NCBI GenBank assembly: GCA_951406725.2
Contig: OX597823.1
Coordinates: 92,628,001-92,692,000 of the forward strand
Origin: Octopus vulgaris
Taxonomy: Eukaryota
Direction: 5' to 3'
DNA: 64,000 nt
Positions 19,419-36,205 of the stretch are shown here, piece after piece. Below the pieces are notes generated by a model, which made no database searches, was not told where the DNA came from, and was given only the letters and a program-made list of their open reading frames with translations. Both the position numbers and the translations under genes were made by a program. Numbering within the stretch: position 1 is the stretch's first letter; the number at the start of each line of letters is the position of its first letter.

Positions 19419-20351
19419 ATATATGCATACATGCACATATATAAATGTGTGTGTATCTGTATGCATCTGTACATTTTTTCCAATTCATGGCTTAAAATTA
19501 ATAGACAGTATGTATATCTTTCCAGTTATTCCATAAGTAAATGTTCTGAGTAGTCTGTATAGAAATCACTTAATAAGTAATTAACTAAGTACATGAATAA
19601 ATATTAAACTGATTCTATATAATTGTCCTTTTTAATGTTTATACTTGATATATACACACCTTTTACCTATTTTACCTAATCACCCATAATGCCACTAAAT
19701 AACATTTCCTCTCTATTAACATCTTAGGTTTCCTAGCGTCTTGCCCTTTTAACTGGTAGTTAACATCATGATTTAAAGCCTACGCCTAACCTACCCCTTG
19801 TTATAGACAGTTACTTATATACAGCTTACTACTCCTAATGTCTTATTTCCTCCCAGGGGAAAACGTATACATATGATAATATTTATGACAAGCCTAGCCA
19901 TGAGCTGTCAACTCACTCTTGTCCTTTATTCAAAATAGACACAGTCTTTCAGTCTTAGATTTAGAAGTTGTTAAAGAGATAAATGAATTAGAAATGAATT
20001 ACAATCGCTTACAACCCTATGACCCCAGAAAGTTCCATGCACTTCTTAGAAGCGTAGTCTATTCTTAGCCACAATAGCGACAGCATGAATTATTTCCATC
20101 TTCTTGCTCTTTTAAAATATTTGAGAAAAATTATATTAATGTGTCCTACAGCTTAAAATCCCATTTATTTATTTGTGCAACTGTCATGAGAATTTACAAT
20201 ATTCGCGAATATGAAACAATTCTGTTTGGGAACAGTGAATCTCGAAGCAAATGAATTTATAACAGTCCAAAAGGTTTTTAAACCAATATTTTTCATGAAA
20301 ACTTTTATTTGTCTTGAGATTCGCTGTTTCAATATATATATATATATATAT

Positions 20352-20867
20352 AGCAATAATAATTCTCTAAAAGGGATATAGACAGTAACTGCTCGATAAC
20401 ATAAGGGACTAAAGCCATCTGAATATGGCTAGGGACAGGGCAGGGTGGTGGGGGTGTTACTGTTGCATTTAGCCCCAGGCGAACATCGACGTCACCAGAA
20501 AGGCTCGACATCGAGCAGTTACTGTCTATATCCCTTTTAGAGAATTATTATTGCTTTCGAACAGATTTTCGAAATCAGCAAATGTATTTTGCTTGAAAAT
20601 CTATATAAGAAAATCCTGCAGAGTGAAAATTCGTCGAGGAAGCGGAGGCCTACCACACGCCGATGATAGGCAATACACCTTGAAACCATGGTCCGTGTGT
20701 GGTTTCCGCTTCATCGGGGAATTACCTCCCTTTGCAGGTTTAGGGCACCGTGACGGTGTCGAGCCTTTCTGGTGACGTCGATGTTCGCCTGGGGCTAAAT
20801 GCAACAGTAACACCCCCACCACCCTGCCCTGTCCCTAGCCATATTCAGATGGCTTTAGTCCCTTATG

Positions 20868-20869
<2 letters not shown>
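20352..20869. mobile_element. Hammerhead-bearing 360-nt retroelement unit (20510-20869) with an inverted partial copy (20352-20510), inserted in (TA)n
   Basis: Nested inverted repeats: 20352-20397 matches 20510-20555, and 20398-20510 matches 20757-20869. Flanked by (TA)n on both sides. Confidence 0.8.
20652..20703 (+). ncRNA. Type I hammerhead ribozyme motif (U4C variant core)
   Basis: CACACG-CCGATGA-TAGGCAATACACCTT-GAAA-CCATGG-TC-CGTGTG. Stem I is 6 bp, extended by GAAGCGGA/TCCGCTTC. Palindromic stem III and a GUC site. Confidence 0.75.
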
Positions 20870-20902
<33 letters not shown>

Positions 20903-20970
20903 CATACATACATACATACACACATACACACACACACATATATATATATATATGTGTGTGTGTATGTGTG

Positions 20971-21024
<54 letters not shown>

Positions 21025-21073
21025 TATATGTATAGGGACGAAGTTTTGTGTATATTTGTGTTTTCTACGAAAT

Positions 21074-27312: not shown

Positions 27313-27681
27313 TCAATATTTCGGGATTATAACCCCATCATCGAGAATTTGACGAATGTTGCCGATGTGCGTGTGAGCGTGTGTGGGTGGACATGAGCAG
27401 AAGGGTTGCCATAGCAACCAGCTACCTTCCTGTAGTTCCTTTTTATGGTTGATCTTGGGTTTCTTTTGATGTATGAGGATAGCTTCAGAGATTTTAATGT
27501 TGCTCCTGTTCCACTGTGTTGTGTTGATGTGCACTCTGAACTGCCGAGTTTGGCATTTTCGTAGATGTTTCTTCACAGAAGTGTCTGCTTGTATGTGTTC
27601 CTTAGTGCGTACGTGCAGTTTTCTTATCGTGCTTCCGATGTAGGATGCGACACATTGGCCACAGATGATCTCATATACGAC
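27313..27681 (-). mobile_element. Penelope-like element GIY-YIG endonuclease fragment
   Basis: The frame of ORF 27313-27576, extended upstream, reads VVYEIICGQCVASYIGSTIRKLHVRTKEH...HL...ISEAILIHQKKPKIN. This carries the PLE GIY-YIG signature (VVY-x-I-x-C-x2-C-x3-YIG-x-T-x-R-x-L-x2-R-x2-EH). Confidence 0.9.
27315..27347 (-). ncRNA. Degenerate hammerhead at the 3' end of the Penelope fragment
   Basis: Minus strand reads CTCGATGA-TGGGGTTATAATCCC-GAAA-TATTG, directly downstream of the GIY-YIG frame as expected for a PLE pLTR. Confidence 0.4.
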
Positions 27682-28112
27682 ATATGTCCTCTGGCCTGAT
27701 CGTCCTGTATTTTCTCTTACCCAAAGCCAGGAATTTCACCCCCTCGTGTGTGTGTGTGTGTGTAGATATGTATGTAAGTATGTAATGATAGGTAGGTAGG
27801 TATATATAAGCATGTGTGTTTATGTCTATGTATATCTGTGTATGTCTATTTTCATATAAAGATGGCATCGAAAGCCAGAGACGTTAACACGTTGGGTACT
27901 TGGTCTAATGTTCCGCAGTGTGATTTCAAATCATGCCCAGGTTACCTTTGCTTGTCGATAAATAAGGAACAGAGCAATTTCTGTTCAGAAATGAACTCCT
28001 AGAAATAGAAAGAGACTCGTTGCCGCATCATTTTCTCGGTGCTTTCAATTAAAATCCACCTTCATCTCAATAAAAAAAATCTGTGTTATATGTACGGAAG
28101 AATAATGTGCTG

Positions 28113-28669: not shown

Positions 28670-29045
28670 TATACAATGGACGGATAGGTGTTATCATCTT
28701 GTTTGTTGTTATCACAACGTTTCGGCTGATGTACCCTCCAGTCTTCATCAGGTGTTCTGGTAGAATTTCTAACGCAATTAATTTGACAAACGGGGCACTC
28801 TCTTCTCATTTCCAAGGTATTCTTTTAATGCGGGTGTTATTTTTGTAGATATTATTTCCCGACAAAAAATAACATCATCAAAAAAAAAAAAACCCCAGCT
28901 TATGAATGAGAATACAATACACCGATAGTCAAATAAAGGGTTGGGTTCGAAATTCCCCCAGAACACTCGAGGAAGGCTGGAAAGAACATCAGTCGAAAAT
29001 TGGTAACAACAAACAAGGTATGGACACTTATTCATCTAGTGTAGA
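28670..29045. repeat. Diverged inverted pair of HHR-bearing Penelope-type repeats
   Basis: The reverse complement of 28670-28772 (GAAATTCTACCAGAACACCTGATGAAGACTGG...AACAACAAACAAG) aligns with 28946-29043 (GAAATTCCCCCAGAACACTCGAGGAAGGCTGG...AACAACAAACAAG). Confidence 0.7.
28713..28754 (-). ncRNA. Minimal type I hammerhead ribozyme motif
   Basis: Minus strand reads CAC-CTGATGA-AGACTGGAGGGTACATCAGCC-GAAA-CG-TT-GTG. Core intact; an AACGTT palindrome replaces stem III. Confidence 0.7.
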
Positions 29046-32195: not shown

Positions 32196-32681
32196 CAGTG
32201 GCGGACTAGGTCTAAAAATATTGATTGCTAGGAGCCTAAGGAGGCCACCCACAACTACAAGGGGGCCCACCCACAAATATACAAGGGGTCCACCCGCAAC
32301 TACAAGGGGGCCCACCCACAACTACAAGGAAGCTCAGCCACAAATACAAGGGACCCACCCACAAATACAAGGGGGCCCTCCCACAACTACAAGGGGGCCC
32401 ACCTGCAACTACAAGGAGGCCCACCCACAACTGGAAGGGGGCCCATCCGCAACTACAATGCCATCATTTCACTTTTCTTTGTTAAACGTATTCTTTCCAA
32501 CCGTCTACAAACACAGCCAGGCTGAAATAATTAATGCATTCTTCCAGGAGTGAATTAAAAATTCTCAAACTTGAGGGGATAGGCCCCTTAAATACTAACA
32601 TGGACCTCCATATATGGATTCTAATTGCGCAGGGACCCACTTGCCATTGGGCATGCTGGCAACCTGACCACTCCGCCACTG
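32196..32681. mobile_element. TIR element (probably hAT MITE) with an internal ~23-bp minisatellite
   Basis: TIRs CAGTGGCGGA and TCCGCCACTG. Flanks CACATATC and CACACATT look like a decayed 8-bp TSD. About 10 copies of CAACTACAAGGGGGCCCACCCA at 32240-32458. Confidence 0.8.
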
Positions 32682-35478: not shown

Positions 35479-35553
<75 letters not shown>

Positions 35554-35991
35554 AAGATGGATAGAGAGAGAGAGGAGATCTTTTCTCCACAGCTAAAATA
35601 TGCCTCTGACGTATTTTCACTATCCTAAAGTTCACTTATGCTTAAATGTTTTTGGGTGCTGATATTACCGTAATTTTCACGACCTCGACGGCTACTACTG
35701 GCATAGGCCAGTCAGTGTTGTTGACTGTACTTTAGTTTAAGTGACGGCTTGAATAGGTCTGTCCAGAGTTGATTCTCTTCAATGATTCCCATTGATAACT
35801 TCCAAACAGTTACAAACATCACCGGACAGATATGGTGTTTTTACATCTTTTTACCATAAGAGAGAATTGCTTTTGCACGGTAACTACAGTGAGATTGCTT
35901 TTAGCAGCTGAAATATGTCACAAGCATATTCTAACTAACCCTAAGTCCGTTTATGCCTAAACATTTTTGGTGTTACAAATAACTGTTATAT

Positions 35992-36046
35992 ATAATCTGT
36001 GCTGATGAAGAGGATCAAACCAGAAATCGCGATACACAGATATTAT
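35992..36046 (+). ncRNA. Minimal type I hammerhead motif (same element type as the 20510-20869 unit)
   Basis: ATCTGTG-CTGATGA-AGAGGATCAAACCA-GAAA-TCGCGA-TA-CACAGAT. 7-bp stem I and palindromic stem III; stem II is weak. Confidence 0.7.
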
Positions 36047-36205
36047 TTTGAGCTGAGTGGGGGTGCTAGATTCTCTTGTTCGAAAATATAAGGACACAGA
36101 TCGTGTCGTATAGCCAACAGGAGACGATGTCTCCTGGGGCTAAATTACAGCAACATTAGTCCTAAACCAAGACTGCCATGTTATCTTGGAAAACAATCTT
36201 TACTA

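What the first reader, a model, noticed from the sequence alone, without database searches (positions are those of the whole stretch)
20352..20869. 360-nt hammerhead RNA unit whose inverted copy spans its own end-to-start junction (retrozyme or circular-RNA-like element)
Seen: the layout is A-B-A'-C-B' inside a (TA)n array. The plus-strand unit A'CB' (20510-20869) is 360 nt. The upstream inverted block (20352-20510), read on the minus strand, is the unit's last ~113 nt (...GTCCCTTATGTT) joined directly to its first 46 nt (ATCGAGCAGTTAC...). The unit carries a type I HHR (20652-20703) at the tip of a long rod: CCTGCA/TGCAGG, AATTC/GAATT, GAAGCGGA/TCCGCTTC, CACACG/CGTGTG. Two more hairpins follow. 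Known: metazoan non-LTR retrozymes are small HHR-bearing units that yield circular RNAs, and Penelope-type insertions often have 5' inversions. Inference: this copy was reverse-transcribed from a circular or multimeric RNA. It may be an undescribed cephalopod retrozyme family.
Basis: partly seen in the sequence, partly recalled or inferred. Interest (0 to 1): 0.8.

Follow-up and report, generated by a model that had tools for sequence, protein, structure and literature searches.

The report
Hammerhead retrozyme with Penelope insertion footprint
This is a fresh copy of a widespread 360-base non-coding repeat that carries a hammerhead-shaped RNA motif and sits in a TA microsatellite with the inverted-copy-plus-tail layout of Penelope-like jumping genes, so it is likely a small RNA parasite (retrozyme) copied by a Penelope enzyme, a known kind of element for which neither self-cutting nor an RNA circle is shown here.

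Summary
A/A' (46 nt) and B/B' (113 nt) are exact inverted copies inside (TA)n, and the inverted block reads unit end joined to unit start. Both are the family's majority form. The unit is a young multi-copy family: 20 of 24 listed runs hold it, and the end-to-start joint appears in 4 of 4 runs laid. The layout needs a template longer than one unit and uncut at the hammerhead, but not a circle. Inverted 5'-truncated copy, short tail, central palindrome and (TA)n target are the described Penelope-like insertion pattern, and two internal start sites for reverse transcription explain the tail. The closed 390-nt contigs could be assembled from copies like this one, so they prove neither tandem arrays nor circles. 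Verdict: a new family of a known kind, a non-LTR retrozyme showing a Penelope insertion footprint. The forward copy stops at exactly one unit, which keeps the circle reading open and testable.

The parts
20332..20351 (.). (AT)10, left part of the microsatellite target
   Evidence: sequence
20352..20397 (-). A: inverted copy of the unit's first 46 nt; the Penelope-type 'tail'; its outer end marks inferred start site 2
   Evidence: 46/46 match; same end followed by (AT)n in one contig of run X2, table 7
20398..20510 (-). B: inverted, 5'-truncated copy of the unit's last 113 nt
   Evidence: exact match to 20757-20869
20503..20516 (.). Palindrome at the inversion centre, 6-bp arms and 2-nt loop; arises because A' and B' share one hexamer (20511, 20759)
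20510..20869 (+). One complete 360-nt unit (A' C B'); differs from the majority form of the runs laid only at 20627
   Evidence: tables 3, 8
20510..20555 (+). A': unit start, equal to the tail; predicted weak stem-loop, no better than shuffles
   Evidence: z -0.76
20615..20738 (+). Predicted long rod carrying the hammerhead at its tip
   Evidence: 20636-20716 alone z -4.52
20654..20699 (+). Type I hammerhead motif: helix I 20654-59/20694-99; core 20660-66 with U4C; helix II 3 bp plus U·U, 7-nt loop; GAAA 20682-85; self-complementary helix III 20685-92; predicted cut after 20693
   Evidence: sequence; no core difference listed in 4 of 4 runs, table 3
20744..20796 (+). Two-hairpin module (20744-60, 20762-96), also present in the old relative at about 36093-36143; B stops 4 nt inside the first hairpin's 3' arm
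20757..20869 (+). B': 3' part of the unit, shared with sister families; holds a hairpin at 20837-54; its end marks inferred start site 1
   Evidence: tables 2, 7
20870..21034 (.). TA-rich array, right part of the microsatellite target

Best explanation
The 518-bp insert is one young copy of a multi-copy 360-nt non-coding unit with a type I hammerhead motif, and it was likely made by a Penelope-like element's enzyme acting in trans on a likely uncut head-to-tail transcript of the unit. Inferred steps: (1) a source locus with at least 1.3 units in tandem is transcribed; (2) the PLE protein binds the B'/A' region and nicks both strands of a (TA)n array; (3) one nick primes reverse transcription at site 1 (after 20869) and copies one whole unit across the intact hammerhead; (4) the other nick primes at site 2 (after 20555, 46 nt further 3' on the RNA), copies A' and then B' of the preceding unit, and stalls in the hairpin at 20744-60; (5) the two cDNA ends join head to head at the shared hexamer, giving A-B-A'-C-B'. 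The hammerhead would cut weakly, best as a dimer through its self-complementary helix III, and may yield monomers or circles as a side product. Shown: layout, motif anatomy, family status, the end-to-start joint. Inferred: transcription, the PLE partner, both start sites, cleavage.
For: Layout exact. The forward copy spans the predicted cut site, so a linear monomer cut at 20693 offers only 176 nt behind site 1 and cannot template it. PLE insertions are described with an adjacent inverted 5'-truncated copy, a 30-40 bp tail and (TA)n targets (PMC8557442), and with palindromes at the inverted junction (PMC3846280). The purified anole PLE nicks and extends both strands, starts at two internal sites with the tail between them, and uses mainly uncut RNA (PMC11167929). 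Family: 20 of 24 listed runs, 8 studies, 5 organism codes, 0.68-0.95 of words. X1 lays 1420 records, 648 at 99% or more; X1 may be the window's own source. Joint 20869>20510 in 4 of 4 runs; A' followed by (AT)n at exactly 20555 in one X2 contig; sister families keep B' and A' and change the middle, two contigs running 150-192 nt on in other sequence (tables 5, 7, 8). No long coding frame: at most 98 open codons even on the closed unit, no parent protein found. Size and helix lengths match non-LTR retrozymes, one of which has a U·U at the base of helix II (PMC7229834).
Against: No autonomous partner was identified by sequence; the PLE remnant at 27316-27735 and the hammerhead-like site at 28751 show no real similarity to the unit. 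The 46-nt tail is longer than the 30-40 bp described. No true tandem locus was seen: the 390-nt closed contigs can be assembled from A-B-A'-C-B' copies alone, because 46 nt exceeds the 31-letter words (my inference). The forward copy stops within 2 nt of one full unit; only 1 of 46 ordered shared-hexamer pairs lies there, which a linear template does not predict. U4C is reported to lower activity considerably in vitro (PMC3088659). The active hammerhead fold lies 7.4 kcal/mol above the predicted minimum in the monomer. 8 of 9 Xenopus retrozyme dimers did not cleave in one study. The PAc mechanism comes from another PLE clade, in vitro.
Confidence: 0.55

Rival explanations
1. Same element and same PLE enzyme, but the template is a 360-nt circular RNA made by hammerhead cutting and ligation. 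Reverse transcription from site 1 goes once round and stops on meeting its own start, which gives exactly one unit permuted relative to the cut site.
For: The forward copy is one unit long to within 2 nt, and its ends are 176 nt from the cut site. About 5 of 360 random stop positions, or 1 of 46 shared-hexamer pairs, would give this (after-the-fact odds). Runs X2 and X7 each hold a 390-nt contig that closes on itself. Mussel, coral and axolotl retrozymes of this size accumulate as circles (PMC7229834), and circles were proposed as PLE templates (PMC4209133).
Against: One locus only. Closed contigs arise equally from tandem DNA or from overlapping partial copies. The centre has a 6-nt shared word that could fix both breakpoints. 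A second enzyme bound at site 1 of the upstream unit of a linear multimer would also stop copying at one unit. PAc needs no cleavage. U4C and U·U weaken the cut that a circle needs.
Confidence: 0.27
2. The unit is the decayed, internally deleted remnant of an autonomous PLE (pLTR plus the first codons of its ORF). It moves passively, the hammerhead is a relic, and 'retrozyme' overstates it; the inversion may come from self-priming rather than twin priming.
For: B' ends in an ATG-led stretch of 7 codons that runs on through the tail to 22 codons, as the pLTR plus tail of rotifer Pen2a covers 22 aa. Sister families differ in the middle. Self-priming was proposed for palindromic junctions. U4C is in the core.
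Against: No protein relative of the 52-residue junction frame (weak negatives). Junction variants are not enriched at third codon positions (hand count: 4, 3 and 4 changed sites at positions 1, 2 and 3). The motif has canonical helix sizes, not the minimal PLE form. The middle is a strong rod (z -4.52), and the majority base at 20627 adds a pair to it. This reading overlaps the best one in origin; it differs on whether the ribozyme matters.
Confidence: 0.13
3. A one-off DNA rearrangement or a misassembly of an ordinary dispersed repeat or satellite at a microsatellite.
For: This locus's own central junction was not listed among the joints in any of the 4 runs, and the site is a long palindrome in (TA)n.
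Against: The end-to-start joint occurs in 4 of 4 runs from 4 studies with several sequence variants, and the tail end at 20555 next to (AT)n recurs in another study. The layout matches a described insertion pattern in four respects.
Confidence: 0.05

Closest known systems
Metazoan non-LTR retrozymes (Cervera and de la Pena 2020, PMC7229834; mussel 350-390 bp, axolotl Rtz_353 with HHR_Amex2)
   Same: 360-nt non-coding unit, GC under 50%, one type I hammerhead with 6-bp helix I and short palindromic helix III, U·U at the base of helix II as in HHR_Amex2, highly self-paired fold, many copies.
   Different: This locus is one unit plus an inverted part, not a tandem array; U4C in the core; no expression, cleavage or circle shown; no sequence comparison with those families was possible (their supplement could not be read).
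Penelope-like element insertion units with inverted pLTR and tail (PMC8557442 fig. 2 legend; rotifer Pen2a_Av, PMC3846280)
   Same: Inverted 5'-truncated copy next to the 5' end, tail on one inverted end, palindrome at the centre, (TA)n target as in Naiad, Hydra and Neptune, hammerhead in the terminal region.
   Different: No RT or endonuclease ORF; tail 46 nt rather than 30-40; the direct upstream pLTR has length 0-1 nt; hammerhead of canonical rather than minimal type.
PAc (Poseidon of Anolis carolinensis), in vitro mechanism (PMC11167929)
   Same: Two ends 46 nt apart downstream of the hammerhead bound a tail, as its two start sites do; AT-rich target; both strands used.
   Different: PAc starts in an AC-rich stem-loop 111-118 nt into its ORF; here the inferred sites lie 176 and 222 nt after the cut site and are not AC-rich; PAc is autonomous.
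Non-autonomous Chlamys elements such as MRC1 (PMC8557442) and PLE-derived vertebrate retrozymes (bioRxiv 10.64898/2026.07.22.740005)
   Same: Non-autonomous units that rely on PLEs; monomer, dimer and multimer copies.
   Different: Chlamys mostly lack hammerheads. The preprint links retrozymes to PLEs by co-occurrence and pLTR homology; in the parts I read it does not describe inverted copies or tails, and it sampled no mollusc.

Membership tests
Metazoan non-LTR retrozyme | Small unit of about 170-400 nt, GC under 50% | tested here: met
   360 nt, 46.7% GC; range from PMC7229834
Metazoan non-LTR retrozyme | Type I hammerhead of canonical helix sizes in the unit | tested here: met
   Helix I 6 bp, II 3 bp plus U·U, III short and palindromic; core has U4C; no Rfam match
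Metazoan non-LTR retrozyme | Non-coding, non-autonomous | tested here: met
   At most 98 open codons on the closed unit; no credible protein relative of the junction frame
Metazoan non-LTR retrozyme | Multi-copy family | tested here: met
   20 of 24 listed runs; 1420 records laid in X1 across four identity bands
Metazoan non-LTR retrozyme | Head-to-tail tandem arrays with two or more complete hammerheads | tested here: inconclusive
   End-to-start joint in 4 of 4 runs; 390-nt closed contigs in X2 and X7; a 407-nt contig in X15 holds 20640-20687 twice, at depth 3.38. All could be assembly mosaics; no genome held
Metazoan non-LTR retrozyme | Self-cleavage as monomer or dimer | not testable with these tools
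   Needs a bench assay; U4C predicts low activity
Metazoan non-LTR retrozyme | Expressed as linear and circular RNA | not testable with these tools
   Only contigs were available, which cannot show strand, ends or circularity
Penelope-like element insertion pattern | Inverted 5'-truncated copy adjacent to the 5' end | tested here: met
   B and A
Penelope-like element insertion pattern | Tail extension past the terminal repeat on one end | tested here: met
   46 nt (described: 30-40); same end next to (AT)n in one X2 contig
Penelope-like element insertion pattern | AT-rich or (TA)n target, target duplication not discernible | tested here: met
Autonomous Penelope-like element | ORF with RT and GIY-YIG endonuclease between pLTRs | tested here: not met
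   No such ORF in 20352-20869
Autonomous Penelope-like element | Sequence homology of the unit to the pLTR of a named PLE family | tested here: inconclusive
   No match to the window's PLE remnants; three 10-nt motifs absent from the one held supplement of PMC8557442, a metadata file; no repeat library on hand
Plant LTR retrozyme | Type III hammerhead in direct LTRs, 4-bp target duplication | tested here: not met
   Type I motif, no direct LTRs

The most novel reading that the evidence does not exclude
This family retrotransposes through a 360-nt ribozyme-made RNA circle that a Penelope-like reverse transcriptase copies exactly once round, from a fixed internal start, while a second start 46 nt away builds the inverted arm. 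The genome would then hold many young fossil records of circle-templated integration, the step of the retrozyme and PLE life cycle that has been proposed but, in the papers I read, not shown, and it would do so with a U4C hammerhead fixed in the family.
Probability: 0.25. Interest if true: 0.7.

Novelty: new member of a known kind. Interest (0 to 1): 0.4.

Why it matters
Animal retrozymes are thought to be moved by Penelope-like elements, on grounds of shared hammerheads, co-occurrence and pLTR homology (PMC7229834; bioRxiv 10.64898/2026.07.22.740005). This copy shows the PLE insertion footprint (inverted arm, tail, central palindrome, TA target) on a retrozyme-type unit, which is structural support for that idea. 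Because the family is young and abundant, the ends of its copies can be counted in any good assembly of the host. That would test directly whether the template is a circle or a linear tandem transcript. The parts themselves are known, so the finding is a useful test case rather than a new system.

Tried and rejected
No RNA holder listed: none of the 20 holders is on record as RNA; X2 and X7 are guesses and may be DNA, so nothing is claimed on expression. Whole-genome analysis was impossible. Metagenome scans: 0 matches for a B' motif; 19 loci for a junction motif, all 19 only 20-21-nt matches with no extension, rejected as chance. Viral contigs: 0. Protein searches for a parent ORF: 52-residue junction frame, 0 of 44 candidates; 2 hits among 1.84 billion, both repetitive proteins with no RT or GIY-YIG domain, rejected; a 42-residue frame at 35715-35840 (-), none. 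The idea that junction variants are codon-shaped failed a hand count (4, 3, 4 sites). Rod support from variants is weak: of 5 listed substitutions 1 adds a pair, 3 keep a pair by wobble (which any such transition does), 1 breaks a pair. The tail hairpin is no more stable than shuffles (z -0.76 and -0.12). Folding the unit as a circle gives the same structure and a less favourable energy (-114.2 against -120.8), so no support for a circle. Summed contig depth is higher over A' and B' than over C in X1, which fits truncated copies and sister families, but it is no copy number and I do not use it. The bacterial promoter scan is irrelevant to an animal element. No covariance model was built: only two divergent copies of the hairpin module were in hand and their alignment was poor. 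Earlier findings: nothing by sequence, place or the first word set.

Full report
Observation. A (20352-20397) matches A' (20510-20555) in 46 of 46 bases and B (20398-20510) matches B' (20757-20869) in 113 of 113, as reverse complements. On the minus strand the inverted block is the unit's end joined to its start. The insert sits between (AT)10 and a TA-rich array, so no target duplication can be read. The unit folds far better than shuffles (z -5.07, 0 of 100), and the four arm pairs named are in place. The window holds no second close copy.

Hammerhead. The sequence shows a type I motif: 6-bp helix I, core at 20660-66, helix II of 3 pairs over a U·U, GAAA, and a perfectly self-complementary 8-nt helix III region (20685-92) that would allow a dimer, with the cut predicted after 20693. 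A structure-aware pattern found it and one loose site in the window, against 0 in 60 window shuffles and 0 of 5000 unit shuffles (pattern written after seeing the motif). Rfam does not recognise it. Core position 4 is C. No difference in the core was listed for any of the 4 runs laid, and the X2 contig matches the whole unit but for 20627, so U4C and U·U are the family form and not decay of this copy. U4C is reported to lower activity in vitro yet to allow viroid infectivity (PMC3088659, passages). A U·U at the base of helix II occurs in axolotl HHR_Amex2, which cuts better as a dimer (PMC7229834). The active fold is 7.4 kcal/mol above the predicted minimum in the monomer. I expect weak, dimer- or protein-assisted cutting; this is inference.

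Family. No genome is held. Of 24 runs listed, 20 hold 0.68-0.95 of the sampled words, in 8 studies and 5 organism codes. I laid 4 of the 20 (X1, X2, X7, X15; 4 studies; X1 may be the window's source). X1 gave 1420 records: 648 at 99% or more, 472 at 95-99, 260 at 90-95, 40 below 90. The joint 20869>20510 is in 4 of 4 runs, with junction variants in X1 and X7. X2 and X7 each have a 390-nt contig covering the unit and closing on itself. X15 has a single 407-nt contig at depth 3.38 that holds 20640-20687 twice; one contig among 37 million records may be trace DNA from another organism. One X2 contig has A' ending at 20555 followed by (AT)n, the same tail end as here, with 1 other letter; it may be this locus in another individual or another copy. 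Loose ends show sister families that keep B' and A' and differ in the middle; 72 loose ends and 1445 pieces were not shown by the tool. Caveat (my inference): the tail is longer than the 31-letter words, so copies built like this locus supply every overlap needed to close the contig. The closed contigs show that B'>A' and A'>C are both family adjacencies, hence a 360-nt repeating unit, but not that arrays or circles exist.

What the layout means. PLE insertions often have an inverted 5'-truncated copy next to the 5' end and a 30-40 bp tail at one end, and several clades target (TA)n (PMC8557442, passages). Rotifer Penelopes show the same, with palindromes at the inverted junction (PMC3846280, passages and Discussion). 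Here the centre is a palindrome with 6-bp arms. The purified anole PLE nicks and extends both strands of AT-rich DNA, starts at two internal RNA sites with the tail between them, and uses mainly RNA not cut by its hammerhead (PMC11167929, parts 1-3 of 4). Mapped on this locus, site 1 is the end of B' and site 2 the end of A'. One cDNA copied a whole unit; the other copied A', crossed the junction and stopped after 113 nt of B', 4 nt into the 3' arm of a 7-bp hairpin. The forward copy crosses the predicted cut site intact, and a cut linear monomer has only 176 nt behind site 1, so the template was an uncut multimer (at least 473 nt if one molecule) or a closed circle.

Circle or linear. The one fact that leans to a circle is that the forward copy ends within 2 nt of one full unit. 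About 5 of 360 positions, or 1 of 46 ordered pairs of shared hexamers, would do so (after-the-fact odds, one locus). Against it: the shared hexamer could fix the breakpoints, an enzyme bound at the upstream site 1 of a multimer would give the same stop, PAc needs no cutting, and the ribozyme looks weak. I put the linear uncut template at 0.55, the circle at 0.27, a passive PLE relic at 0.13 and a one-off event at 0.05.

Parent element. None was found. The 52-residue frame across the junction gave no credible relative. The GIY-YIG remnant at 27316-27735 (Pfam E 0.0012, below the curated cut-off) and the hammerhead-like site at 28751 are unrelated in sequence. An old element at 35552-36204, also between microsatellites, has a decayed hammerhead-like motif at about 35995-36048 and the same two-hairpin module a similar distance downstream (alignment score 63 against a shuffle maximum of 56, 0 of 300). 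This suggests the module is an old shared signal; that is inference.

Comparison. It works like a PLE insertion (three of three layout features met) and is not an autonomous PLE (no ORF). It meets four sequence criteria of non-LTR retrozymes; tandem arrays are inconclusive; cleavage and circles are untested. Retrozymes of 350-390 bp are known in a mussel (PMC7229834, passages and parts 2-4 of 6; supplement unreadable, and it may list further species). A 2026 preprint argues that animal retrozymes derive from PLEs (parts 1-3 of 5; supplements not seen); it sampled no mollusc. PMC4209133 (parts 1-2 of 4) defines canonical and minimal hammerheads and proposes circles as PLE templates. Searches for a description in cephalopods returned only PMC8557442 and unrelated papers; one search returned one plant review (passages); one search found no natural hammerhead with this core spelling (listing only). 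An O. vulgaris repeat annotation lists 31 recently active Penelope-like families and has no mention of ribozymes (PMC13282606, passages); its library may already contain this unit under another label. PMC12602865 (passages) added nothing; PMC5785218 is not held. The host was not tested; that the window's other repeats look octopus-like is my recall and comes from no call.

Verdict. Real, young, multi-copy, and a new member of a known kind. Interest 0.4: the parts are known, but the copy joins a retrozyme-type unit to a PLE insertion footprint, and the family's copy ends make the circle-template question countable.

Noticed in passing
window 35552-36204: Old element between (TA)n and (CA)n(TA)n with a decayed type I hammerhead-like motif (core at 36002, 7-bp helix I, palindromic helix III, helix II only 2 bp) and the unit's two-hairpin module at about 36093-36143 (z -5.62); also a 73% direct repeat 35590-35655 / 35905-35970. 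A short minus-strand frame at 35715-35840 found no relative.
   Followed up: partly
window 27316-27735 (-): 140-residue open frame with a GIY-YIG match (Pfam E 0.0012, below cut-off) ending in a hammerhead-like stretch: likely the 3' end of a truncated PLE, unrelated in sequence to the unit.
   Followed up: partly
window 28700-28760 (-): Minimal-hammerhead-like motif of PLE type (core at 28751), about 1 kb from the GIY-YIG remnant.
   Followed up: no
runs X2, X7, X1 (tables 5c and 7): At least two or three sister families share B' and A' but have other middles; two contigs run 150 and 192 nt on in unlike sequence and could lead to the autonomous partner.
   Followed up: no
run X1, joint 20546/20608: One opposite-strand joint at other positions than this locus's centre: possibly another inverted copy with different breakpoints.
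   Followed up: no
window 32238-32458: GC-rich 22-bp minisatellite, about 10 copies.
   Followed up: no
window 20849-20869 and 20510-20555: An ATG in the last hairpin of B' opens 22 codons through the tail, the same span as pLTR plus tail in rotifer Pen2a; no protein support and no third-position bias, so possibly chance.
   Followed up: yes
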